From Octopus vulgaris (Eukaryota), in the NCBI GenBank assembly GCA_951406725.2, contig OX597818.1, forward strand, positions 111,414,001 to 111,478,000: a DNA stretch of 64,000 nt. Direction: 5' to 3'. The translations under genes were made by a program, and so were the position numbers. The notes under the pieces were generated by a model, which saw only the letters and a program-made list of their open reading frames with translations, had not been told where the DNA came from and did not search any database. Every line of letters begins with the position of its first letter. Within the stretch, counting starts at the first letter, position 1. Shown in pieces: positions 482-56,625 of this stretch.

Positions 482-935
482 AGGAAGTAAAGACACACCG
501 TTTGCCAACAAACGAGATATATTCTCTGTGACAAAACGCAGTGAGTAGCTTGCCCCCTGTTCGAACATGCATCTAGTATATTCGGACTGATAATAACATT
601 GCAATTTTACTGATCACTGCTTAGCGCTCCCTCCCTAAACGACATTGAATATCTAAATTCTTAATTGTTGTTAGTATCAACAAAGCGAAAGTTTATATTA
701 AAGCTACAATAATGAAGAACCACTTGTTTATCGTGTCTCTCATAACATACACATTAACAACACAAACAACACAAACAACACTAAGTACTTAAAAATCTAC
801 TTGTTTCGATGTTAATGTTAAACAGTTTTAGCACGTTAACTAATTGAGGTTTCCGGTGACCTCATTCTTCAGAACAATTTCTAATTCCGGTTTGACATCC
901 ACAGATAGTTTCGACGCCTGCTGGGTTTCGGCTAC

Positions 936-978: not shown

Positions 979-2429
979 TGTCGTACCAGCAAAAGGAAGC
1001 TGTTGAATTTCTAATTCCTAATACGACATCTGTGTATCATGGACGTATCACAAAACAAACATTCATTTCTAGTTCATCCTAAACACGAAATAATCCATAA
1101 TTAAAAATTGCACTTGTTTTAATTATGGTCCATCCTGACAGATTAATATAATAAAAGACATCCCAACCATGGCATTAACGACTACTTTATGCTATATGTT
1201 CTGTCTTTATATACGACAGTAGGGTATGATTCACGAAACCGTTGCTGCTAAATCTCTCCGGTCAGGCCACCAGATTGGAGCCAATTCGTTCGCTCGCATA
1301 ACACATGTTTCCCCTTCTAAGTGGACTGTGTGAGAATTAAGTGCCTTCTGAAGTATCTAAGCGGAATGTCGACACTATATCTAGTAAGACCACACCATAT
1401 TCACTTGATAAATTGCAGCTGTCTCTCTTTTTCACTTTCTTTCTCTCTCTTCCTCTCACTCTTTCATCTGATCTGCTTCTTTTTTTCACTTTTCCTTTTG
1501 CCGGTTAACTTTCGTTATTGATCGTTCTTATTTAACTTCTTATTTTCTTAAATATTCTTCGCCTGCCGCATAATATTGAGATAAATCTGACATGACATTT
1601 AACCAAAGATAATCAATGAAGAGGGGAAAAAAAATCGATCATGCTAAAAGACAAGGAAAAACCAAATAAACAAAAACAATGAAACTGCTCTGAAAAACCC
1701 TCGTAGAATTTGTCGTCAATAACCAAATTCCAGCCAATCCTGGAATTTAACTCATCGAACAAATATCGAATTGTACTGAATGCCCTTGGAAGAACAGACT
1801 CTTGTTCTGTTTAAGGTGAATGTCTCAGAATTTAGTAAAATTACAAAACAGAACGTTGCTTTCTTATCGTTGTCCTTTGTTCTTCCAGTTTCTTTAGTTT
1901 TTCTTTTCTTGTATTTCCAAAAGCTTCTCTCACTAAATTTCTCACACTATCCTACTATGTTTTACTTGCAGATCTTAAAATACATGAAAAGGACAATAAT
2001 CTTCTTTTTGTTTTTATGTGTGTGTGGGAGTAACTGTGTTTATGAATGTTTTAGTGTAGTTTTCAGCTGTCGTGTCACCACCAACGACATGTCACGCTGA
2101 CTTCCAGATATTCTAATGAAGACACAACTGTGCAGCATTTTAAAAAATGGATTTATCACTTGTTCGATCTGTTTTATAATAGCTATGAAGACACTCGCTG
2201 CTGTTGTTACTGCTGTTTAGCCAGTCGTGATCAAAAGCGTTCCGACAGTGACTGTTGAGCCTTTATGTTTATTATAGGAATACAGTACTATAAAATGTCC
2301 GATGTCCTCTTTTTCTTTCTAAGAAATGATGTGATTTAAGGAAATTTGACTGCTATTTCTAACATGCAGGATAGATATGCAATGGCTTCTTCATCATCTG
2401 GAGTTGATGTGAAGAATAGTGCAACACTA

Positions 2430-2830
2430 TTCTTTTCCACTCTAGGCACAAAGCTCGAAATTTTTGGGGAGGGGTCCGGTCGATTAGATCAACCCCAGTA
2501 TGCAAATGGTACTTATTTAATCGACCCCGAAAGGAAGAAAGGCAAAGTCGACTTCGGCGGAATTTCAACTCAGAATGTAAAGACAGAAGAAATACCTATT
2601 TCTTTACTACCCACAAGGGGCTAAACACAGAGAAGACAAACAAGGACAGACAAACGGATTAAGTCGATTACATCGACTCCAGTGCATAACTGGTACTTAT
2701 TTAATCGATCCCGAAAGGATGAAAGGCAAAGTCGACCTCGGCGGAATTTGAACTCAGAATGTAACAGCAGACGAAATACCGCTAAGCATTTCGCCCGGAA
2801 TGCTAACGATTCTGCCAGCTCGCAGCCTTA
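2430..2830 (-). mobile_element. SINE family B, two units in tandem (younger copy joined to a headless older copy)
   Basis: Block TTTAATCGACCCCGAAAGG...AAAGTCGAC.TCGGCGGAATTT.AACTCAGAATGTAA occurs twice (~2516 and ~2700), each with a different tail. Confidence 0.8.
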
Positions 2831-3135
2831 CAAATAGTGCAACATTATTGACAGAGGAAAGAAGGCAACGGACCAAAAGAGGAGAGAAGTCCCCAAAAAT
2901 AACAGACGTAGATCTTATCTGTTGAAATGATGTAAAGGGTAAATTTCTGCATTAGATAAGATTTTGAGTTTAGATTCTGTTTGTGTTAGGATCAGCTTTA
3001 ACGTTTATACAGTTTGATCTCCGAAATAAATTTGTGTAATATGATAATAGATTAAAAAGAGAAGGATGTGTTTCAAGAGGACTATGACATCATCATTGAA
3101 TTGTGGTACTTATGTGTTTGTGTATATAAGCATAT

Positions 3136-3640
3136 ATCACGCAATCATGATCGACCAGACTGCCGGATGCACTTTGTATCATTTTAGCTTTCAAATGATA
3201 CCACCCCGCTGGTTAGGTGAGCAACCCAAAACCCTCCACTTCCTCATCGGAAGGGTTGACAACATCGCCGGTGTAACCCATTTACAGCTAAGTGGACTGT
3301 AACAACTTCATGCTAAAAAAGTGTTTTGCTCGAAAGTCCCCATCTGGCGGTCGTGAATGCAGTCCCGTAAACACAACGCCCTATGCCTCCTTAGTCTTCT
3401 CTCAGAGTGTGACAAGGTTGGCCCTTTGAAATATAGATACAAGAGAAACAGGAAGAAAGAGCGAGAGAAAGTTGAAGTGAAAGAGTACAGCAGGGTTCAC
3501 CACCACCCGCTGCCATAGCCTTGTGGACCTTTAGGTGTTTTTGCTCAATAAACACTCACAACATCCGATCTGGGAATCGAAACCGCTATCCCACGACCGC
3601 GAGTCCACTGCCCTAACAACTGGGACATTGCGTCTCCACT
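3136..3640 (-). mobile_element. Mosaic of SINE fragments (family D tail and head, A/E-type pieces)
   Basis: 3440-3640 is the reverse complement of the head of the element at 61799; 3136-3230 matches its tail. Confidence 0.65.
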
Positions 3641-4047
3641 CTTTCTAATAACAACACATTGCTACATACTGAAATGGATTCAGTTACTACCAAACAGACA
3701 AGATTATTATTAAGGTTAGGCGACATAAATTAAAGTAACTCGTTAAAAAATGAAACATTCTTAATTTGAAAGCTGTTTTGGTATACAGTGTTGTGAGGGT
3801 AAACAACCATAAAAATAAGACGTGAGAATGTAAAGAGAGTGGAACAATAAATATGTTGCGAAATTACCAGTCCAAGTGCACTCGAAAAGTTTTATGACAA
3901 CTCTATAAAATATCATGTGACAGAATAAGGTAGGTGTATGCGTGTGTGTGTGTGGGGGGGGGGGCGTAAGTGGCATTCCGACTGATACACACGCACTCAC
4001 ACACACACATACACATGCATGGAAACAAACGCATATACATTTCTATA

Positions 4048-7158: not shown

Positions 7159-7356
7159 AAGTTAATCCAAACATGAAAACACAAAGAGAAAACACAACAA
7201 CGTGAGTACATGGAACGCCCAGGAAAGGAAAGAAAGAAGGAGGACTTAACGTTTCGAGCGGAGCTCTTCGTCAGAAACATAGGAAAAGGAAAGATCCAAG
7301 GATTGGAAAAGACGGAGGAAAAAATCACCAACGATACACACGCGGTCACATTTTGA
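7159..7356 (-). mobile_element. PLE-like pLTR fragment with hammerhead at 7244-7278
   Basis: Minus strand GTTT-CTGACGA-A-GAGC tcc GCTC-GAAA-CG-TT-AAGT; flanked by (TA)n; second copy at 33090. Confidence 0.65.
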
Positions 7357-11334: not shown

Positions 11335-11768
11335 ACAGGCATGGCTGTATGGTATGACTCTTCGTTTTCAACCACATAATTACCGGTTTAGTGCCACTGC
11401 ATGGCACCTTGGGCAAGTGCCTTCTCAGTATAACTCCGAGCCGACGAATCACTTGTGAGTGGATTTGGTGAAAAGAAACTGTAAGAAGCCCTTCGGATAT
11501 ATTTATGTGTTTGCCTTTCTCGCCTACCGCCGCATGACAACTGATGTTGGTTTCTTTACGGCCCCGTAACATAGAAGTTTGGCACAAGGGACTTGTAGAA
11601 TCATTACCAGATTGAAGAACAGTAAGTATTGGAATCAGTGCTCCAGCACGGCCGCAGTCAAATGACTGAAACAAGTAAAAGTTATATATCTTCTTTTATT
11701 CTTTAACTTGTTTCAGTCATTTGACTGCGGCCTTGCTGGAGCACCGTTTTGAGTCGAGCAAATCGACC

Positions 11769-12437: not shown

Positions 12438-13869
12438 TATGTGTGTTTGTGTGTGTGTGTGTGTGTGAGTTACTTCGTAGTGATGAACTGTCTTACTCGA
12501 TTTTCGAAACTTATTAGGTTGTCGTCAAATGCGTCTACATCAATTTGATCAATCCTAGAGAAACATGGAACCAATCTGCTTATATGTCCAACAAACCCAG
12601 TGGTTTCAGAGAACTGGAGCTTCTAATCGGCATACTGTGAGTATTTAACTCTTTATTTGAGACCAGCTGCCTGGCTTCGATGGTAAGTACTGTAGTTCTT
12701 TGATCAGTTAAACACTCTCGTCATTGAATATTCGTGTAAACGTGTGAACGTTCCACGAGCAAGTCTAAACTTATTCTCATTCACAGTCAGTGTGATAACG
12801 AATGGCAAAAGCTAAAGCTTTATAAATACAGTCAATCTGAATTGGGTGTTTTCATATAATTTCTGATAATTTCGTCGAGATAGGATCAACGTGAGGTTAT
12901 GGTGAAAGATATGTGTGTAAAATGCTATCGAATAGGTTCGAACCCCGGACCTCATGATCTTAAAACCAACTTGTTTACCAACTCGACCAGGACTGATTAT
13001 CTGACGTATTTGCATTATTGTGTATAAGGGAGTTCAAATGATTCCACCCGTCCTCAAGATATACGAATGGATGGATTTGATTTGAAAACTGCAAGTTCGA
13101 GAAAGTGTTTGTCCGTTCTTTGGTGCCTCATTCACTTTGCAAGCTACGAGCTGCCTTTCCCCGTGCATTTCTTCGTTCTACATCTAAACAACGCATGGTC
13201 GGACGAGAATTAAGCATCGAGGCCAATGATAAAGTGAAGTAGCAGTATATTTGATACAAACTGTGAACTCTTCGGTCGGCAGTTCAAACCCACTTAGTTT
13301 TGAATGGTTGTATGTGAAGTAGTACACATAGCCAAACTAGCAGCAGCAGTATGAGAATAACATAGATGATTGTTGTACATAAAGAGCGATATACCAGAAT
13401 CAATATCGCATTGCGACAGACTTACATTTGATTGGAGCCAGAAGCTCTGGTAGGGCTTTAAAATAGATAGCATCACTTTATCAAATAAAATTTATTTGAT
13501 AAGAAACTTATAAATAAATTCTGTTGTCTGTTTAGAAGAGTTTATCTCAGCTTAAAATATTTCGTCAAAATCTTTGTGGTTACAACAGAATTTCCATTTA
13601 CCCTGCGTCACATAAAACCGTTACCATTTTGTACCGGTTAAACACAAGAAATATATCTCAACTGGGCCCTTGTGAATGGTGCCTCTGAAATATTTAATCT
13701 CAAGGCAATTGTATTTTGTTTTACGCCAGTAAAATTTACACCTGGATACATTTATCTTTGCCTGATTAAAAACTAGAATTCCATTAAAGACGAATTACTA
13801 ATTACAAAGGTATTAAGTCTGACGTGCAAAGGTATTAAGTCCGACGTATTTCATTAATCAAAATGAATA

Positions 13870-19025: not shown

Positions 19026-20537
19026 TTAGATATCATTTGAAAACATCGCTGCACAATTTGGTAAGAAAGCAAACAAGATTAATTATTAAAGTTTGTTAAA
19101 TTAATTTGTATAGAAATATTTCTAGGAAAAGTCAGCACTTTCATAGCTACACAAACAAACACGCCTATTTCTGCTACATATATGCACACACACATCCGAA
19201 CGTTCATACACACATACATACTTATATACATGTACATACACATACGTAGAACCATACACACTTCAATACAGGTGTGCGTGCGTAGCTGCGTGCGTAGCTG
19301 CGTGCGTAGCTGCGCGCGTGTGTGAAGGTAGACTGTGAGTGTATGAGTTGTTTCCTACAATCTTCCTGGTTGTTGATCGTTTAGCAAGATATATATTCAT
19401 TTTATATACACTGACATACATAAATACATACATTCGCATATACACAGACACAAATACAGGCATACGTATGAATGTGCATACTTACGTATGTAATTACATA
19501 CACACATTGCAACCCGTAGATACACTCGTGTATATATATATACATATATACATACATAGATGTTTGAGAAAAGCACCATTCTGTCAAAATATACATGATT
19601 TACGTGTTACACCCAGTTGATATGTCATAACAGATCTTTTTCTAATTATCGTCGCTGTTTTCCGTTTTCTTTTCCTTCCTTCCCCCGCTTATTATATGAT
19701 TTACTTAATAGAAAAATATAGGTGTTGCGCACACCGATACGAATTTATATACATCAACTCTACATCATAAACCATAACGACAATCACCCATCATCATCAT
19801 CATCATCAGCTTAACTTCCACTGTTATTGTCATCACCATCGATTTATCACACTTAGAACAACAACGCATACATAGACACAAACACGGGAAGAAAAACTGA
19901 AAATAAATTTAATAACAAACAAGGAAAATCGCAAAAAAAAAAAAAAAATATCGTCACTTCCCGTTCACGCGCACAAATTCAGACTCAGACGAACAGATTA
20001 TCAATGGTTGAGTTTGCAAAAGATTTTAGCAAATTTTGGCAACGCTTCTCAAAATCACAAAATTACATTAAATTTTCTAAGGTAGAAGAAAAATATTTCG
20101 TGAAAGATACTGTTTTTTTTTTTTTGATATATAAGTAACGTGAAAAATATATTAATATCTATATTAATATAATTTGTCTGTCTGCACACCACTCTATCTC
20201 ATTAATAAATATATATTTACTTTTTGCATTCCACCAATTCTATAATGTATCATTAAACTTTTATTGGATAAACACACACACACACACACACGCATATATA
20301 TACATACATACATACATACACACACACGCATATATATACATACACATACACACATATATAAATATGTATTTAGACACATACATGTATGTATATATACGAA
20401 TATAAAGTGTTGTATATATATATATGTTTGCGTGTGTATGTGTGTGTGCATGTAAGTATTTTCTTATGTATATGTATACATATATTTGAATGTTTATACA
20501 TACCCATATATATATGTTTGCACATTTATATATATAT

Positions 20538-21920
20538 AAACAGGGAAACAGATCCCTCGCAGTCAACTATCGCCCAATCTCACTCACCTCCCACATCATT
20601 AAAGTGTTTGAAAGAGTGTTAAGATCAAGGATAGCTGACTTCCTGGAGACCCACAAACTCCTAAATTCAAATCAGCATGGCTTTCGCTGTGGCAGGGACT
20701 GTCTAACACAGCTCTTACACCACATTGAAGATGTACTCAAAGCCTTGGGAACAGGTTCGAACTCTGACGTCATATACTTTGACTTCAGTAAAGCGTTCGA
20801 CAGGGTAGACCATAACATCCTACTCTCAAAATTGGCAAATGTTGGAATCCGTGGAAAAGTTCTACACTGGATTCAGTATTTCCTAGCGAATAGAACACAA
20901 CATGTTGTAGTTGATGGAGTCCATTCAAACCCAGCAAAAGTCACCAGCGGTGTTCCCCAGGGAACTGTTTTGGGTCCGCTACTCTTCATAATTTATGTAA
21001 ACGACCTTTCCAGTGTCGTACATCACTGCAAAGTGAGAATATTCGCTGATGACACTAAGCTCCAGCAAATCGTCAATGAAGAAGCAGACCGAACTCAACT
21101 CCAGTCTGACCTATATGCTGTGAGTCAATGGGCAGACAGAAACAAAATGCAACTGAATGAGGGAAAATTTGAACTGATGCATTTTGGAAGAAATTCCTCA
21201 CTAAAACAACCATACTCTCTTTCTTCAGGGGAACCGCTCACAGCCTCTAACAATATCAGAGACCTGGGTGTAATTGTTGATGACGATCTCAGTTGGAGTG
21301 CACACATCAACAAGAAGGTCGATACAGCTCGTAGGATGAGTTCCTGGATCTTAAGAACTTTCCGGTCCAGAGAACAAGGTGTCATCATACCACTTTTTTC
21401 ATCCTTTGTACGGCCACACCTTGAATACTGCTGCCCACTGTGGTCTCCTCACACAAGACAAAACATCTCCAGAATTGAGTCACCCCAGAGGGCTCTCACT
21501 AAACAAATTGAAGGCATGGCTGCTCTCGATTATTGGGATCGCCTTAAAGCCTTGAAACTTTACTCCCTCCAGCGTCGCCGTGAGCGGTAGATCATTTGTA
21601 CGATGTGGAAAATATACCGCCAACTTTGCCCAAACGACCTAAACATTAGCTTCAAGGTTCATCCGAGACTTGGACCACGGGCTATACGTCCCCTGCCAAA
21701 TTCAAGATCACAACATACATGTACACTGCAACATAATTTCTTTTCCTCAACAGGCCCTGCCCTATTTAACATTGTCCCGAGGGAGATCAAAGAGGAAAAG
21801 GATCCCATCAACTTCAAACAGAGTCTGGATAGATTCCTTCAAAGAATACCAGATAAGCCACCCATAATTGGATACAACTCACCCAACAAGAACTCACTAC
21901 TTGAACAAAACTTGACTTAA
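20538..21920 (+). pseudogene. Non-LTR reverse transcriptase ORF2 remnant with one in-frame stop
   Basis: ORFs 20490-21590 and 21603-21920 are in the same frame; the N-terminal residues of the first ORF are microsatellite-derived. Confidence 0.9.
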
Positions 21921-22968: not shown

Positions 22969-23309
22969 ACGTCTATATCTAGCATGTTGACTGTCCACTT
23001 TTCGTGTTCAGTCCTTAATTGGTATATATAAATATTTTAATCTTCGGATTCTTTTTTAATATGCTAGACCACTGGTCTTAATTGATAAATATCAATTTCT
23101 ACCCTTAATTAATTTTATATAAATAAATGTTCTCTAACCGATAAATTAACTGCTGCTAATTATTAGCTGCAGGCTAGTTTCCTCGGGTCTCAACGCGCCA
23201 AGGTAAAGGCATTTGAAAGATATATTCAAATGTAATAGGCTGAACTCCATGCACGCGATATTTCGGTATCGTGTTTGCATTTAGTCCAGCAAATTACATT
23301 TATAACGGA

Positions 23310-24170: not shown

Positions 24171-24965
24171 TGTGGTTGTCTACTCCTTATGCAGAGTTTG
24201 GCCACCTCTTGTATACCTACACCTTATTACCATCATAGCATCTGATGTGGATTTGTAAACCAGATAATGTTCTGAAAAGACACCCACATAGATTGCATAT
24301 CTGATTTGGACCAGCAAGATCTGCAGTTAAGTTCTGATGTTTGTGGATCTCAAAACGTATTTTGAGGCCTCCATTGGATTTGCAAATCTTCTGGCATACG
24401 CTGCATTCAAAGGTTTGCACATACATATAGGCAAAATAGTTGGTGGAGGTCGGTTTTCCATGTTTTCGCAGATGAGTTTTGAGGCCAGCAAAAGACAAGC
24501 ATGGTCTCTCACAGACTGCACACATAAAGGTCATTGTCATTCACCTTCTCGATCGTTATATTCTTCCTTAGATCTCTTTTGAGTCTTGTATTATCCTGGC
24601 CTCTTCAAATGCTTTCACTTCACTCTTTTGTTCGCCATCCAGCTCGATCTGAAGCATGTCTTCTAGATCCATTCCGAGTAACTTCGTATTAGTCCTTATC
24701 CTGTCCTTAAACTTGTTTCAGGTTTACGGCGATAGTATTTCCTCTCTGCAAGATCACCATAAAATAGCTGTTTCGGCATGCGTTCATCCGCCATCCGAAC
24801 AATATGGCCACACCATCTCATTTGGTTCCTCAAAATCATAGCTTTAATTGAGGTTATGCCTGCAGATGCAAGGACATCTGTGTTTGGAGTAAAAGAACTC
24901 CATTTAATTGTGCAATGCCCGAAGGTTACGGAACTGTGGGCTTATGTCGAACACCTGCAGTCACA
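24170..24965 (-). mobile_element. RTE-clade LINE 3' end with three C-terminal C2H2-like fingers, decayed
   Basis: Minus strand IKWSSFTPNTDVLASAGITSIKAMILRNQMRWCGHIVRMADERMPKQLFYGDL, then CAVCERPCLSFAGLKTHLRKH, CSVCQKICKSNGGL, CNLCGCLFRTLSGLQIH. Confidence 0.85.
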
Positions 24966-28277: not shown

Positions 28278-28561
28278 ATGTGTGTGTGTGTGTGTGTGTG
28301 AGAGAGTGGGTGTGTGGGTACATATACATATTAGTGTTTTTACAAGATGGCAACCTTTTCTCTGAGATGCAGATTTAGAAGCAAAAAAAAGTAATTTAGA
28401 TTTTTTATCTCCCACTTCATATCAAGCGAGTCCATGTATGTGTGTGCGTGTGTGTGTGTGTGTGTGTGCGTGAGTATGTGTGTGTGTATGGGTATGGTGT
28501 AGTGTGTGTGTCAATACGTGTGTGTGAGTATGGCGTAGTGGCGTGTGAGTATGTGTGTGTG

Positions 28562-28638
28562 TGAGCATCCCATCGTAGTGAGTATGGCTACTAACCCCAA
28601 GATTCTGAGTTCGATTTCAGGCAGTGACCTGTATAATG

Positions 28639-28701
<63 letters not shown>

Positions 28702-28803
28702 TCGAAAAAAACCCTTAGGAATGAGAACCCAGGTTCAAAATTCCCCCAAGACAACAAAGAAGATGAGGACAAATATCCATCAAATGTAAATAATATAAAT
28801 AAT
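28562..28803 (+). mobile_element. tRNA-headed element with internal (AAT)n and a tail shared with the hammerhead hairpin at 56387
   Basis: B-box-like GAGTTCGATTTC at ~28606; (AAT)n 28634-28699; tail AAGATGAGGACAAATATCCATCAAATGTAAATAAT matches ~56524-56558. Confidence 0.6.
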
Positions 28804-29157
28804 GTGTGTGTGTGTGTGCGTATGTGTAAGAAAAATATAATTACTAACAAAGAAGTATGCTATTAAAATAAACTATCATTTACCTCCTTTTGTATAAACC
28901 ACTGTCATCCAAATGAAATTCCTTATACACATGGATACATGCAGACAAAAACACACGCATACACACACACACTCAGCGTGAGAGATATATTTTTGTAGGG
29001 AGTGACAGTGTGATAAAAACGTATAGAGATGGGGAAAGTTTACCATGAAAAAAGCGAAAAATGAAAGCGAGAGAGAGAGAGAGAGAGAGCGAAAGAGATA
29101 GATAGATAGATATATATATATAGAGAGATAGAGATATATATATAGAGAGAGATAGAG

Positions 29158-40929: not shown

Positions 40930-40980
40930 AGCGTCCTGAAGATTTCTCTTGAATGAAACAGTTCTAGTCCTGTAGAAGCT
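40930..40980 (+). ncRNA. Type I hammerhead motif in PLE-like fragment (~40680-41066)
   Basis: AGCGTC-CTGAAGA-TTTC tctt GAAT-GAAA-CAG ttctagtc CTG-TA-GAAGCT; one stem I mismatch; AATAAA shortly downstream. Confidence 0.65.
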
Positions 40981-48156: not shown

Positions 48157-49084
48157 ACATGTGGCGAAGATGCAAATGCACGTATACATGTGTGTGTGTG
48201 TGTGGGGGTGGGTGTATGCGCGCGCGTACATGTGTTTCAGAAAGCATATTCAAAGAAAAAGCAAGATATTCATTAATAGTTATAATAATTCTGAAGGAAA
48301 AAAACCCAGTCATCGTTATCCGTGTTAGAAAGTACAAGTTACGCTGAGAGAAAAGCACGAGTAAAGGTAAGAGTAAGAGAGAGTGAAAGAGAGAGTGAGA
48401 GAGAGAGAGAGAGAGAGAGATAGGAGAAAAACAAGCATAGAACCTAAAATAAAAAAAAAAGACAAATGGAGATAAAGATAATCATCACAAGCGCCAAGTC
48501 AACAATAACTATGGAACAAAAAAACAGACGAAGCTATAAAAGGATTTCTATTATCGAAAAATAGAGATAAACAAACTCACCACTATGACGGCTACGTTGT
48601 GCGGTGTGGTTGTTTTTTTTTTATTTAAAAATTTTTCAATGAACGTAATGCACTAAATTATATTACAAGATGAAACCTTAACAGTTAAGAACTGGGGGAA
48701 AAATATATATATTATTTCGATATTATGTTATGATGGGTTATCATCATCATCATCATCATCGTCATCATCGTCATCATCTGTATCACGCATATGTATAATG
48801 CTTATAACACTATTTGTTTCTCTTTTTCCTTTGATTATCAATAGTTTTTTGTAATTTGTCTCTCTAAATAACCCCTCTTTAGTTGTCCACATTGTAACAA
48901 CGACAGCAACAACAGCAGCAACAACAACAACAACAACAACAACCACAGTTTTGAATTTATCGACCCCGAAAGGATGACAAGCAAAGTCAACCTCAGCGGA
49001 ATTTGAACTCAGAATGTGAAGGCGGACGAAATGCCGCCAAGCATTTTGTCCGGTTTGCTAACGATTCTGTTATTTTACTGCCTT

Positions 49085-49093
49085 AATAATAAC

Positions 49094-49170
<77 letters not shown>

Positions 49171-49226
49171 TAATAATAATGATAATAATAATAATAATGA
49201 TGATGATGATAATAATGATGATGATG

Positions 49227-49320
<94 letters not shown>

Positions 49321-49330
49321 TAATAATAAT
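49085..49330. repeat. (AAT)n/(GAT)n microsatellite
   Basis: Direct reading. Confidence 0.95.
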
Positions 49331-49851
49331 GACAGAAAGATAGATCCGAATAGGCCATACATCATATTGAAAGACTTCAGACAAAAATCTTGCCTCCTCA
49401 TTGATATGACTGTCCCAATCGATATAAACGTATCTGCCAAGACCTACCAAAAACTGAGCAAATATAAAGATCTTGAAATAGAAATTGGCAAAATATGGAA
49501 CCTGAAGAATAAAACAATACCTATTGTCATAGATGCCCTGGGATTGATAGCAAAAGGGGATGATTGCTACCTAACTCAGATACCAGGAACCCCAAAATGG
49601 CAGAAATTCAAAAGATAGTGCTCATGGGAACTGCTCATATCCTACGCAAAATACTTTCTTTGTAATCTCAAGTTTTAAAACAAACATAATTTTCGTATGG
49701 TTTTTCAGGCATTCACTAGTACAACACTAAGTACAAAACCAAATATATGACACCCCAGGCATAACACCAACATGAACTTCTAACCTGTTGTCTCTTGAGG
49801 TATCTGGGTGAGCTTGGAGTCAACTTGTACAAATACAAAGCAAAGTCAAAC

Positions 49852-49853
<2 letters not shown>
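49331..49853 (+). mobile_element. R4/Dong-like LINE 3' end (restriction-like endonuclease domain plus 3' UTR)
   Basis: NRPYIILKD...LLIDMTVPID...KLSKYKDLEIEI...PIVIDALG, then EIQKIVLMGTAHILRKIL; bounded by (AAT)n on both sides. Confidence 0.9.
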
Positions 49854-49924
<71 letters not shown>

Positions 49925-49926
<2 letters not shown>

Positions 49927-50439
49927 AGTACATACAGACCGAACCATCAAGGCCAATAAACCAGATATTGTTGTGAAAGACCAAAACAATAAAGTTTGCT
50001 TATTGATCGACATGAGCATCCCCTGTGATCATAATATCTCAGCGAAAGAGTTTGACAAGCTCAGAAAATATAAAGACCTACTCATTGAAATTGAGAAAAT
50101 GTGGCATCTCAAGGCGGTTACAATACCAGTGATCGTAGGAGCACTAGGAATGATCAAGAAGGGAACTGAAAATTAGATGAGAATGATCCTTGGCTTACCA
50201 TCCCTGCAAGAAGTGCAAAAGATTGTCTTAACTGGTACATCACACGTATTGAGAAGAGCATTGTCGATGTGAGAACTGTTGCTGCTCATGTATTTTAATT
50301 TAACTTTAAAAAAAAAAAATGAACGAACTATTGAGTTTGGTTTAATGGCCTACCAATGTATACTATGAGTTTCTTTGCCCTAGGAGTTGGGAAGACACTC
50401 GGCAAGAAATGGAAGCAAATTTGAAAGAAGAAAAACAGA

Positions 50440-50441
<2 letters not shown>
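49925..50441 (+). mobile_element. Second R4/Dong-like LINE 3' end, different family
   Basis: TDRTIKANKPDIVVKD...LIDMSIPCD...KLRKYKDL...PVIVGALG, then QEVQKIVLTGTSHVLRRAL; bounded by (AAT)n. Confidence 0.9.
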
Positions 50442-50490
<49 letters not shown>

Positions 50491-50493
<3 letters not shown>

Positions 50494-50965
50494 GGAAGGA
50501 GTAAAACCGCCCAGGTGTTGATAATTTCGATCTTATTCCGTCCGTTTAATTTCGACTTAAGGATCAGTCTCAGTCTGCCCAAGTACGCCACCTTAAATTT
50601 TTCTGTCATTTCTTTCTCCAACAATTTATCCATTTCCAAAAGGAATATAAGAGACGCCATGAAAATATAGCCACGCTTGTCCATTGGTCATTTTGCAACA
50701 AGTATGGACTTGACAGAGCAAAAAATTGGTACAACCACAAACCTGAAGGCATCATCGAAAATGATTATACAATGATCCTGTGGGATTTTATGATTCAGTG
50801 CGACCATGAGATAGAAAATAGGAAGCCAGACATAGTTTTAATTGAGAAAGAAAGCAGACTATGCTGGATCATAGATATAGCAAGCCCGCTGACAACAAGG
50901 TATGCGATAAGGAAGAAAGAAAAGTCGATAGATATGACAGATTAGCTTGGGAAGTTAAGCAGTTT
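50491..50965 (+). mobile_element. Third R4/Dong-like fragment with inverted 5' segment
   Basis: 50491-50638 minus: YLGRLRLILKSKLNGRNKIEIINTWAV; 50638-50965 plus: EYKRRHENIATLVHW...ILWDFMIQCDHEIENRKPDIVLI...IIDIA. Confidence 0.85.
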
Positions 50966-52529: not shown

Positions 52530-53166
52530 TTTATGTTTTAAGAAGTTTTTTTGAAAATTAGAAAGGGGAAAAAAAGAAAATTGCAATGTTTTTTGTAAAA
52601 GAATAATGATAAAAATGTACAAAAATTAAAAAATAAGTTCTCCGATACATTGTGAGTTCGTTGTGTATCTTGAGTTTTATGGTTGTTTACCAAAAAGTTA
52701 CCTTGAGGTGTTAAGATCCAAAGGGATTAAGAGCATGTGATGTGTTGTGTTGTTGAATACAGCATGTTGCAGGACAGGAAGTAGTAGTAATTGTGGTCCT
52801 GGTTCTTCAGTTCCTGTGTTGTGAGTAAGGGGAGAAAACTCTTTTGAGTTCTTCAATAAAACCCAAATTATAAAACTATCATTTTAGCTTCATTTGCATT
52901 ATCTTTTTTATATATAATTGCTTGTTAACTTAACTTTCAGATTTTAACACTTTATTTATATTATTTTCTAATAATATAAAACTGCATAGACAATTGCATT
53001 TCAAATTGTCATATCATTTATAATAAAAATGATAGTAGTAACAACAACAATAGTGAAAATGATATTTAAAGAATATAAGTTTTAGCTTGAAGTGGTGAAT
53101 GCATGGTATCTTTATATATTTGTGTTAGTCCATCCATGAAGAGTGAGGTAGAGGAAGGAAGTTTGA

Positions 53167-53277
53167 TCAACGAGGAGTTTGCATATTAAGTTGTGTTTGG
53201 AATTTTTCAATAAAGAGATTCTCCTTGTTAATTCTCTCCTGTGTGGTGATCCCGTCTTTACATTGGTAGAAGGGGAA
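53167..53277 (-). pseudogene. C-terminal remnant of Penelope GIY-YIG endonuclease ORF
   Basis: Hand translation FPFYQCKDGITTQERINKENLFIEKFQTQLNMQTPR*; R..KE..FI......LN pattern typical of GIY-YIG C-termini; below the ORF-track cutoff. Confidence 0.75.
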
Positions 53278-53758
53278 TGACAATTTGAAATGCAATTGTC
53301 TATGCAGTTTTATATTATTAGAAAATAATATAAATAAAGTGTTAAAATCTGAAAGTTAAGTTAACAAGCAATTATATATAAAAAAGATAATGCAAATGAA
53401 GCTAAAATGATAGTTTTATAATTTGGGTTTTATTGAAGAACTCAAAAGAGTTTTCTCCCCTTACTCACAACACAGGAACTGAAGAACCAGGACCACAATT
53501 ACTACTACTTCCTGTCCTGCAACATGCTGTATTCAACAACACAACACATCACATGCTCTTAATCCCTTTGGATCTTAACACCTCAAGGTAACTTTTTGGT
53601 AAACAACCATAAAACTCAAGATACACAACGAACTCACAATGTATCGGAGAACTTATTTTTTAATTTTTGTACATTTTTATCATTATTCTTTTACAAAAAA
53701 CATTGCAATTTTCTTTTTTTCCCTTTCTAATTTTCAAAAAAACTTCTTAAAACATAAA

Positions 53759-55616: not shown

Positions 55617-56116
55617 ATATCGAGAGAAACCTTACAGTAACATTGAAAACTTTTACCTCTTACAGCCAGTGAGAGAGCTCGGAACATGGTAATTCATCCT
55701 GTTAGAAGTAGCGACCAAATCCCAAATTAGGAACTGCTATAGAAGAATCCTCTAATCGGTCACTGGACTTGCTAGTGATAGCTGCTAATACTACCTCAAC
55801 TCAAACTCTGTCTTATAAAAAATGAGAAAGACGCACTGGATAGTGTAAACCTTGAGAGTTTGTCTCTGAAATGTAAGTGTGATAGTGACTATGTCTATCT
55901 AGGTTTCCAGTTCCCCTGGGTCAGTGCCGATCTGTGCCTACAACAAGAACAACTACAAATAATAAAATTGATTTATCTGAGCACGGAAATTATAAGATTG
56001 TGATTTGTCGAACAAAGAATTTAATTGTCCATTAGTTCTTATGCCTACTAATGAATCTTTTCTCCTGAAGAGAACCTCAGAAACTCGGCGCAAGGTTCAG
56101 AAACGCACCAATATGA

Positions 56117-56625
56117 CCAAGAACTGGAACGGGAAGTGCTGGTTCATCCTCCATAATCTCCAGACTTGGCGCCGTCATATTTTCATCCCTTTCGACCTCT
56201 TTCGAACACTTTGTGCGGTGTATCATTCAATAATGACGTAGAATTGAGGGCTTAGTTGGACGAATTCATTGAGTCAAGACCAGAAGTTTTCTATCGCCGA
56301 GGCATCGGAAAACTTATTGAACGATAGAAGAATATATTATTGATCAATTTGTTGTAGATCTTTTAAAAATAAAGTTCTATATTTAGGAGATGAGGAATTA
56401 TGTACATTATTTACATTATTTACATTTGACGGATATTTGTCCTCATCTTGTATGTTATTAACACAAGACACCTGATGAAGGCTGGAGGGTATACCAGCCG
56501 AAACGTTGTGTTAACAACAAACAAGATGAGGATAAATATCAGTCAAATGTAAATAATGTAGGTTTTTTTTATGTTTAAAATAAATTTGAAAAAACACTCG
56601 TGAATTATTCCTCAACAAAATATAT
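56117..56625 (+). mobile_element. Mariner transposon remnant (transposase C-terminus and probable right end), interrupted by a hairpin insert
   Basis: QELEREVLVHPP*SPDLAPSYFHPFRPLSNTL...FYRRGIGKLIER* matches the mariner YSPDLAPSD region; TIR-like GAATTATTCCTCAACAAAATA-TA at ~56603-56625. Confidence 0.8.
56467..56512 (+). ncRNA. Minimal type I hammerhead, canonical core, inside a hairpin insert (~56387-56560)
   Basis: GACAC-CTGATGA-A-GGCTGG agggtata CCAGCC-GAAA-CG-TT-GTGTT; tail duplicated in inverted orientation upstream. Confidence 0.8.

What the first reader, a model, noticed from the sequence alone, without database searches (positions are those of the whole stretch)
28562..28803. tRNA-headed element sharing a hammerhead-bearing tail: a possible Penelope-dependent SINE
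Seen: B-box-like head, (AAT)n linker, then ...CCCCCAAGAC|AACAAAGAAGATGAGGACAAATATCC..., whereas 56464-56560 reads CAAGAC-ACCTGATGA...GAAACGTTGTGTTAAC-AACAAACAAGATGAGGATAAATATC. The 28.7-kb copy has both flanks but lacks the ribozyme, consistent with a deletion between short AC/ACA repeats. Inference: the intact family is Pol III head + (AAT)n + HHR pLTR-like tail. Known SINE tails usually derive from LINEs, so a PLE-derived self-cleaving tail would be unusual.
Basis: inference. Interest (0 to 1): 0.75.

Follow-up and report, generated by a model that had tools for sequence, protein, structure and literature searches.

The report
Abundant hammerhead repeat with tRNA-like head
This is a damaged copy of a very abundant short mobile repeat, probably from an octopus, whose other copies carry a small self-cutting RNA motif and show the insertion pattern of Penelope-type jumping genes; it resembles the known blood-fluke Sm-alpha elements, but whether its tRNA-like front end belongs to the whole family is still open.

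Summary
The 28.7-kb copy reads tRNA-like head, (AAT)n, a 54-nt middle and a tail. It lacks 46 nt between two ACA trimers that at 56.4 kb hold a minimal type I hammerhead of the Penelope kind. Contigs of four public runs confirm the family norm: after the middle come the hammerhead letters (128, 136, 268 and 11 contigs), and AAT-type runs lie before it. The family has at least thousands of copies. Not shown: that the head travels with the tail in other copies (it is seen once), that it is the 5' end, Pol III transcription (no A box in register), self-cleavage, or an autonomous partner. Best reading (0.55): a short non-autonomous Penelope-mobilised element with a tRNA-derived head. Main rival (0.25): the truncated 3' end of a longer autonomous element. 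The idea has precedents: Schistosoma Sm-alpha/Sj-alpha and retrozymes. I found no paper on this family. New variant of a known kind.

The parts
28531..28541 (+). Perfect A-box-like 11-mer in the TG-rich left flank, 67 nt before the B box; may be chance, a tandem echo of the head, or the element's displaced A box (unresolved)
   Evidence: 0 mismatches; 5 perfect A boxes on both strands of the window
28552..28563 (.). Left (TG)n flank; the insert sits in a TG tract (a 13-bp repeat on both sides is uninformative as a TSD, since the 13-mer occurs 17 times per strand)
28564..28633 (+). Head; 28588-28628 has the spacing of a tRNA 3' half (anticodon loop 28588-28594, 5-nt variable loop, T loop 28610-28616); the 5' half does not look like a tRNA
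   Evidence: no Rfam hit, no ARAGORN call, no stable fold (z +0.5)
28609..28617 (+). B-box-like motif, one mismatch to GWTCRANNC
28634..28699 (+). (AAT)n linker (pure run 28641-28697, 19 units); AAT/AAC runs precede the middle in other copies too
   Evidence: loose ends before 28706, 28713, 28715
28700..28753 (+). Middle segment of the family; followed by the hammerhead in other copies
28751..28753 (+). ACA junction of the 46-nt deletion that removed the hammerhead core and the 3' strand of stem I
28751..28802 (+). Tail, ending in a doubled AAATAAT-type unit, then (TG)n; family depth falls off at about 28789-28797 (28792-28832 masked by the tool)
56467..56512 (+). Minimal type I hammerhead: stem I 56467-71/56508-12, CUGAUGA 56472-78, unpaired A 56479, stem II 56480-85/56494-99, GAAA 56500-03, palindromic CG 56504-05, predicted cut after U56507
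   Evidence: descriptor hits 2 in the window, at most 1 in 200 shuffles (0 in 196)
56508..56560 (+). Tail of the plus-strand, 5'-truncated copy (which starts at about 56464)
56404..56466 (-). Inverted copy of the tail; its 5' end lies in a 3-nt overlap (56464-56466) that contains the predicted cleavage position
   Evidence: (fold-back -81.1 kcal/mol, z -14.95)
56376..56403 (-). Probable one-sided 3' extension (about 28 nt) that can pair over 9 bp with the tail; its membership in the family is not tested
   Evidence: 87 of 9,087 background windows reach a 9-mer match
56103..56330 (+). Broken mariner transposase C-terminus; the hammerhead unit sits just downstream of it
   Evidence: SETMAR E 3.4e-14, Mos1 E 7e-10

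Best explanation
A short (about 290-320 nt), non-coding, high-copy retroelement built as tRNA-derived head - (AAT)n - middle - minimal hammerhead - tail - short extension, copied in trans by the reverse transcriptase and GIY-YIG endonuclease of a Penelope-like element (PLE). Shown: the order (AAT)n-middle-hammerhead-tail in many copies, high abundance in three organisms' runs, the PLE-type ribozyme features, and PLE-type insertion anatomy at 56.4 kb. Inferred: the head belongs to the family; it serves or served as a Pol III promoter; two hammerheads on one or two RNAs pair through the ACGU palindrome and cut after U56507; a PLE protein primes at a nick (here in a TG tract and behind a mariner fragment) and leaves 5'-truncated, inverted or partly tandem copies. 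The 28.7-kb copy lost its ribozyme when a polymerase skipped the folded motif between two ACA trimers at the base of stem I (inferred), so it is a dead copy.
For: Family order and abundance: hammerhead letters behind 28753 in 128/136/268/11 contigs; 2,626/2,876/4,861/302 contigs laid; summed depth 54,000-117,000 times single-copy depth, at least about 1,700-3,800 after the harshest overlap correction; middle/tail depth 0.79-0.93. Ribozyme: against the min-HHR features in PMC4209133. Anatomy: against PMC8557442 Fig. 2 legend; two single-contig junctions of the same kind (28715/28751 on opposite strands; a go-back from 28770 to 28751 via the 7 letters at the cut site). Head in this copy: (TG)n brackets head-to-tail on both sides and no AAT lies at the 3' end, which fits one insertion (inference). 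tRNA 3'-half invariants in register.
Against: The head is seen in one copy only, and no call reached past the (AAT)n in other copies. No A box at tRNA spacing; the B box has one mismatch; no Rfam tRNA or ARAGORN call; the T stem pairs poorly. Window-wide the tRNA descriptor is not rare (5 places against a mean of 2.2 in shuffles; with the B box fixed, 5,818 of 100,000). No TSD could be read at either site. No autonomous PLE with this tail was found: no PLE domain in 136 of 220 window ORFs scanned, and no genome is held. PLE minimal hammerheads cleave poorly in vitro.
Confidence: 0.55

Rival explanations
1. The unit is the 3' end (pseudo-LTR) of a longer, autonomous PLE. The many short copies are its 5'-truncated insertions, and the tRNA-like piece is an internal part of the 3' region, not a SINE head.
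For: PLE insertions are mostly 5'-truncated, and dispersed min-HHRs were read as truncated PLEs. The head shows only a tRNA 3' half and no A box in register, as a copy truncated at about 28564-28588 would. The 56.4-kb copy is exactly such a truncated end.
Against: Depth falls little from tail to middle (0.79-0.93), and the copy number is very high, both of which fit a short unit, though neither excludes this rival. No ORF is seen next to either copy.
Confidence: 0.25
2. The head is a separate tRNA-SINE fragment. The family is only (AAT)n-middle-hammerhead-tail, and the join at 28.6 kb is a one-off, as an earlier scan note found for a similar-looking case in another genome.
For: One copy only. 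The head's B-box region matches two other SINE-like copies in the window at 15/17 (2744-2760, 48999-49015).
Against: An insertion into the AAT tail of an older SINE should leave AAT at the 3' side as well; here the 3' side is TG, and TG brackets the whole unit. Beyond those 17 letters the head matches no other SINE in the window.
Confidence: 0.12
3. An ordinary LINE-mobilised tRNA SINE that once captured a PLE end; the hammerhead is a passenger.
For: SINEs dominate octopus repeats; the window holds a LINE RT; HHRs may be dispensable in PLEs; hammerhead-less copies exist (this one; 2 of the 32 listed pieces, both in run X8, bridge the site).
Against: An inverted 5' partner and a one-sided extension are described as PLE features, and the extension as not seen in TPRT of non-LTR elements. 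No poly(A) or LINE-type simple-repeat tail at either 3' end.
Confidence: 0.08

Closest known systems
Schistosoma Sm-alpha / Sj-alpha SINE-like elements
   Same: Short, non-coding, very abundant; tRNA-related sequence (Sm-alpha-like copies score as tRNA-Gln-TTG, PMC2770079) and a Pol III promoter upstream of a type I hammerhead (review PMC6765202).
   Different: Schistosome HHRs of this kind are described as canonical and often tandem; here the ribozyme is the minimal PLE type without helix III, an internal (AAT)n is present, both window copies are solitary, and one shows an inverted partner. Pol III transcription and cleavage were reported for Sm-alpha and are untested here. I could not read the primary paper.
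Pseudo-LTR ends of EN+ Penelope-like elements with minimal hammerheads (Cervera and de la Pena 2014; Craig et al. 2021)
   Same: All four min-HHR hallmarks; hammerhead about 50 nt from the 3' end; 5' truncation, inverted partner, probable one-sided extension, insertion in a microsatellite.
   Different: No RT/GIY-YIG ORF attached or found; a tRNA-like segment upstream, which the passages I read do not describe for pLTRs.
Animal non-LTR retrozymes (Cervera and de la Pena 2020; Li, Clavereau and Pollet 2026 preprint)
   Same: Non-coding units of a few hundred nt with a type I HHR, proposed as non-autonomous PLE derivatives; monomers are common in some families.
   Different: Defined by head-to-tail tandems and circular RNA, neither shown here; the 2026 preprint has no occurrence of 'tRNA' (listing) and sampled vertebrates, insects and a coral.
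Non-autonomous Chlamys PLEs such as MRC1 (Craig et al. 2021)
   Same: Short non-autonomous elements that form pLTRs and share 3' ends with autonomous PLEs.
   Different: Green algae; most Chlamys lack canonical HHRs; no tRNA head mentioned in the passages read.

Membership tests
Minimal type I hammerhead of PLEs | CUGANGA and GAAA..UH core with helices I and II | tested here: met
   helix I 5 bp, helix II 6 bp; Rfam has no hit, as expected without helix III (inference)
Minimal type I hammerhead of PLEs | Extra base between 9 and 10.1, G10.1-C11.1 pair, palindromic 15.2-16.2 | tested here: met
   A56479; G56480-C56499; C56504-G56505 (features)
Minimal type I hammerhead of PLEs | Self-cleavage as a dimer | not testable with these tools
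   needs in vitro transcription
PLE-type insertion | 5' truncation with an adjacent inverted copy | tested here: met
   56404-56466 inverted to 56464-56560; one similar single-contig joint
PLE-type insertion | 30-40-bp extension at one end | tested here: inconclusive
   about 28 nt at 56376-56403, 9-bp complement to the tail, background 87 of 9,087; empty site unknown
PLE-type insertion | Partial tandem forming a pLTR | tested here: inconclusive
   none in the window; two single-contig go-back joints
Autonomous PLE | RT plus GIY-YIG ORF attached | tested here: not met
   no such domain in 136 of 220 ORFs scanned, the longest first; says nothing about other loci
tRNA-derived SINE | Short, non-coding, high copy number | tested here: met
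   (for middle, hammerhead and tail; rough figures)
tRNA-derived SINE | tRNA-derived head | tested here: inconclusive
   3'-half invariants in register, 80 of 100,000 shuffles; a degenerate 20-mer built on the head lies in ARAGORN tRNA genes in 53 of 67 viral loci, of mixed isotypes (partly circular); no Rfam or ARAGORN call on the head
tRNA-derived SINE | A and B boxes at promoter spacing near the 5' end | tested here: not met
   in this copy: B box one mismatch; best A box inside the head has 3 mismatches; a perfect one lies 67 nt away in the TG flank. Other copies not seen
tRNA-derived SINE | Head is the common 5' end and co-occurs with the tail | not testable with these tools
   no genome held; the one read-laying run covered 28690-28950 only; indirect searches blank
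tRNA-derived SINE | Target-site duplication | tested here: inconclusive
   microsatellite at 28.7 kb; at most 8 bp, offset, at 56.4 kb
tRNA-derived SINE | 3' tail shared with a partner LINE, or poly(A) | tested here: inconclusive
   no poly(A) at either end; no LINE or PLE library to compare with
tRNA-derived SINE | Pol III transcription | not testable with these tools
   no run on record as RNA; no T4 stop inside the unit on the + strand
Non-LTR retrozyme | Head-to-tail tandem of HHR-bearing units | tested here: not met
   both window copies are solitary; other loci not seen
Non-LTR retrozyme | Abundant circular RNA | not testable with these tools
   only contigs were available

The most novel reading that the evidence does not exclude
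A genuine Pol III, tRNA-headed SINE of tens of thousands of copies whose partner is a Penelope-like element: it has a fixed 5' end at the tRNA head, takes its 3' end from an identifiable autonomous PLE, and its copies bear PLE-specific scars, with inverted partners starting at the hammerhead cut site. That would be direct genomic evidence of a SINE-PLE partnership and of hammerhead cleavage shaping PLE insertion junctions.
Probability: 0.35. Interest if true: 0.7.

Novelty: new variant of a known kind. Interest (0 to 1): 0.5.

Why it matters
SINEs are normally paired with LINEs. PLE mobilisation of short elements (retrozymes, Sm-alpha-like repeats) is argued mainly from co-occurrence and sequence likeness, and the role of the minimal hammerhead in PLEs is stated to be unclear. 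A family with thousands of copies, a PLE-type ribozyme and PLE-type junctions would allow a statistical test: do inverted and tandem partners start at the cut site? It would also show whether a tRNA promoter can drive such an element. If the head proves internal to a long PLE, the finding is ordinary.

Tried and rejected
No own genome, so the co-occurrence count could not be run. DNA pattern scans for hammerhead, head, middle and tail in prokaryote genomes and viral contigs found nothing of this family. The six metagenome hits share only 19-24 letters and are chance. The one head hit in a cyanobacterium is not a tRNA and shares only the 20-mer. Searches for spurious protein translations that might span head and tail were blank. 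Four window motifs were not found in paper texts or in the supplements searched (only 12 of 33 files of PMC10294476; bioRxiv supplements are closed, so the retrozyme preprint's tables were not seen). No RNA holder listed; run X14 is only guessed to be RNA, so nothing is claimed on expression. Rfam hits in the window are microsatellite or hairpin noise. The 13-bp TG repeat at 28.7 kb was rejected as a TSD (17 occurrences per strand). No isotype is assigned to the head: the nearest tRNAs are mixed (Thr 20, Gln 9, Arg 8, Met 5 and others of 67). Three of the five loose hammerhead-pattern matches (849, 40936, 56065) fail the stem descriptor.

Full report
Setting. The window is AT-rich animal DNA full of microsatellites. 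I take it to be an octopus genome from recalled SINE motifs; no call names the organism, and no whole genome is held. The sequencing-run search listed 24 runs from five coded organisms.

Observation. A self-BLAST finds the tail of the 28.7-kb copy twice more, both at 56.4 kb: forward at 56514-56560 (42/47, E 4.6e-13) and inverted at 56456-56404 (49/53, E 6e-18). The head and the middle have no other copy in the window. Upstream of the missing part the two copies share only CAAGACA, so the window alone could not prove a deletion.

The family norm. I laid the contigs of four runs (X2, X8, X12, X14; organisms A, B, D, B) on 28690-28950 at 80% likeness. 2,626, 2,876, 4,861 and 302 contigs were laid; 614, 645, 985 and 75 fit only in part. 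The largest loose-end class in each run lies behind 28753, and its consensus is the hammerhead of the 56.4-kb copy (128, 136, 268, 11 contigs). The class before 28751 is the ribozyme's 3' half (63, 87, 107; 10 with a garbled consensus in X14). Loose ends before 28706-28715 are AAT/AAC runs (50, 55, 71, 9 contigs; two more in X8 show an AAG run). 217 further loose-end rows were not shown. So (AAT)n-middle-hammerhead-tail is the usual order, and the 28.7-kb copy has lost 46 nt between ACA at 56468-70 and ACA at 56514-16. Both trimers lie at the base of stem I, so a polymerase skipping the folded motif is a natural cause (inference). Two of the 32 listed pieces, both in X8, also bridge the site without the ribozyme, with many differences; they may be orthologues or repeat deletions. 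The tool warns that summed depth is no copy number. As a rough bound, tail depth is 54,000-117,000 times the depth of single-copy-like contigs, about 1,700-3,800 after dividing by the largest possible word overlap and 18,000-39,000 with a milder correction; middle/tail depth is 0.79-0.93.

The ribozyme. 56467-56512 folds with a 5-bp helix I, the CUGAUGA core, one unpaired A, a 6-bp helix II opened by G-C, GAAA, a palindromic CG and UU; the predicted cut is after 56507. A stem-aware descriptor finds 2 such motifs in the window and none in 196 of 200 shuffles, one in the other four. These are the hallmarks that Cervera and de la Pena list for minimal hammerheads of Penelope-like elements (PLEs), which need a dimer and cleave poorly in vitro (PMC4209133, parts 1-2 of 4 read). 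Rfam gives no hammerhead hit.

This copy has no head, AAT run or middle. It starts at about 56464, and upstream lies an inverted copy of the tail, giving a fold-back of -81.1 kcal/mol (z -14.95). The two arms overlap by 3 nt (56464-56466), and the position that matches the cleavage site falls inside that overlap. This may reflect a cleaved RNA end, or only template switching at the complementary strands of helix I; one locus cannot tell. The inverted arm runs on for about 28 nt (56403-56376) into a stretch that pairs over 9 bp with the tail (background 87 of 9,087 windows) and is absent from the other end. Craig et al. describe 5' truncation, an adjacent inverted copy and a one-sided 30-40-bp extension as typical of PLE insertions, the extension not being seen for non-LTR elements (PMC8557442, passages). 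One search holds single contigs with similar joints: middle and tail start on opposite strands (X12), and a go-back to the tail start through the seven letters at the cut site (X2). The unit sits just behind a broken mariner transposase (E 3.4e-14). No clear TSD is seen at either site.

The head. From 28588 the spacing is that of a tRNA 3' half: a 7-nt loop with Y32, U33 and R37, five bases, a 5-nt variable loop, G53 and a TTCGATT loop. A descriptor of these textbook invariants hits the head in 80 of 100,000 shuffles of its 70 nt. It is not rare window-wide (5 places, mean 2.2 in shuffles), and with the B box fixed the rest arises in 5,818 of 100,000. A degenerate 20-mer built on the head falls in tRNA genes in 53 of 67 viral loci, of mixed isotypes; this is partly circular. 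Against: no Rfam or ARAGORN call and no stable fold; one mismatch in the B box; no A box in register, the best inside the head having 3 mismatches, while a perfect one lies 67 nt upstream in the TG-rich flank. So a tRNA origin is likely but weakly shown, and the promoter of this copy is not intact. That the head came in with the rest is suggested by TG tracts on both sides of 28564-28802 and by the lack of AAT at the 3' end (inference). I also recall this join from other octopus sequences, but that is memory and I give it little weight. Every indirect attempt to see the head in a second copy was blank.

How it most likely works. A short non-coding RNA with a PLE-type 3' end is reverse-transcribed at a nick by a PLE protein in trans, leaving truncated, inverted or partly tandem copies; a tRNA-derived head supplies, or once supplied, the promoter (0.55). 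The order of parts, the abundance, the ribozyme type and the scar are shown. The head's membership, the promoter, cleavage and the partner are inferred. The main rival is that all this is the 3' end of a long autonomous PLE (0.25). A one-off join (0.12) and a LINE-driven SINE with a passenger ribozyme (0.08) are less likely. No PLE domain was found in 136 of the 220 window ORFs scanned; the only RT is a LINE-type RVT_1 at 20490-21587.

What is known. Schistosoma Sm-alpha and Sj-alpha are SINE-like elements with a Pol III promoter followed by a hammerhead (PMC6765202, passages), and Sm-alpha-like copies score as tRNA-Gln (PMC2770079, passages); the primary paper was not held. Animal retrozymes are proposed to rely on PLEs and have been called a new type of SINE (PMC7761336, PMC7229834, PMC8969392, passages). 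A 2026 preprint argues that they are non-autonomous pLTR derivatives (10.64898/2026.07.22.740005, parts 1-3 of 5 read; supplements closed). Non-autonomous PLEs such as MRC1 exist in algae. Cephalopod repeat surveys list tRNA SINEs and Penelope but no such hybrid in the passages read (PMC8967140; PMC6962438); PMC10886601 (passages) has no mention of Penelope. Ten literature searches found no description of this family; Repbase, Dfam and most subscription journals were not searchable, so it may be catalogued there. It works like Sm-alpha or a retrozyme monomer. It cannot yet be filed as a SINE (A box not met in this copy, 5' end unknown) or as a retrozyme (no tandem seen).

Verdict. Real feature, correct deletion, right ribozyme class; the SINE claim is plausible but its key step is untested, and the concept has precedents. 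New variant of a known kind; interest 0.5.

Noticed in passing
window 7245-7282 (-): A second minimal hammerhead (4-bp stems I and II, same GAAACGTT end) in a short element between (TA)n tracts; unrelated in sequence to the 56.4-kb one, probably another PLE-type family.
   Followed up: partly
window 849-872 (-), 40936-40959 (+), 56065-56104 (+): Loose hammerhead-core matches that fail the stem descriptor; 40936 and 849 look like decayed motifs, 56065 overlaps the mariner fragment.
   Followed up: partly
window 20490-21587 (+): 366-codon open frame with a LINE-type reverse transcriptase, Pfam RVT_1 E 2.6e-32.
   Followed up: no
window 24220-24540 (-), with repeats near 23084, 23589, 24084: C2H2 zinc-finger array next to short matches spaced about 500 bp apart, suggesting a tandem zinc-finger repeat.
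   Followed up: no
window 2346-2842: ARAGORN's only call, a tmRNA, overlaps tandem SINE-like copies and is very probably false.
   Followed up: partly
window 11637-11745: Head-to-head palindrome of a SINE-like tail, scored by Rfam as a plant miRNA hairpin below its gathering score.
   Followed up: no
window 49007-50942: Several fragments with a restriction-like endonuclease motif of R2/R4-type LINEs (motif recalled; no Pfam hit), each beside long AAT runs.
   Followed up: no
window 52602-53687: Matching segments in inverted orientation (52602-52641 with 53648-53687; 52947-52980 with 53309-53342) point to a long inverted-repeat element of about 1.1 kb.
   Followed up: no
window 12943-12964 (-), 34677 (-), 61876 (+): Other tRNA-like or A/B-box-bearing heads, probably ordinary tRNA SINEs.
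   Followed up: no
window 28833-28950: A separate, lower-copy repeat just right of the element (summed depth about 4,000 in X2 against 1.9 million for the tail).
   Followed up: no
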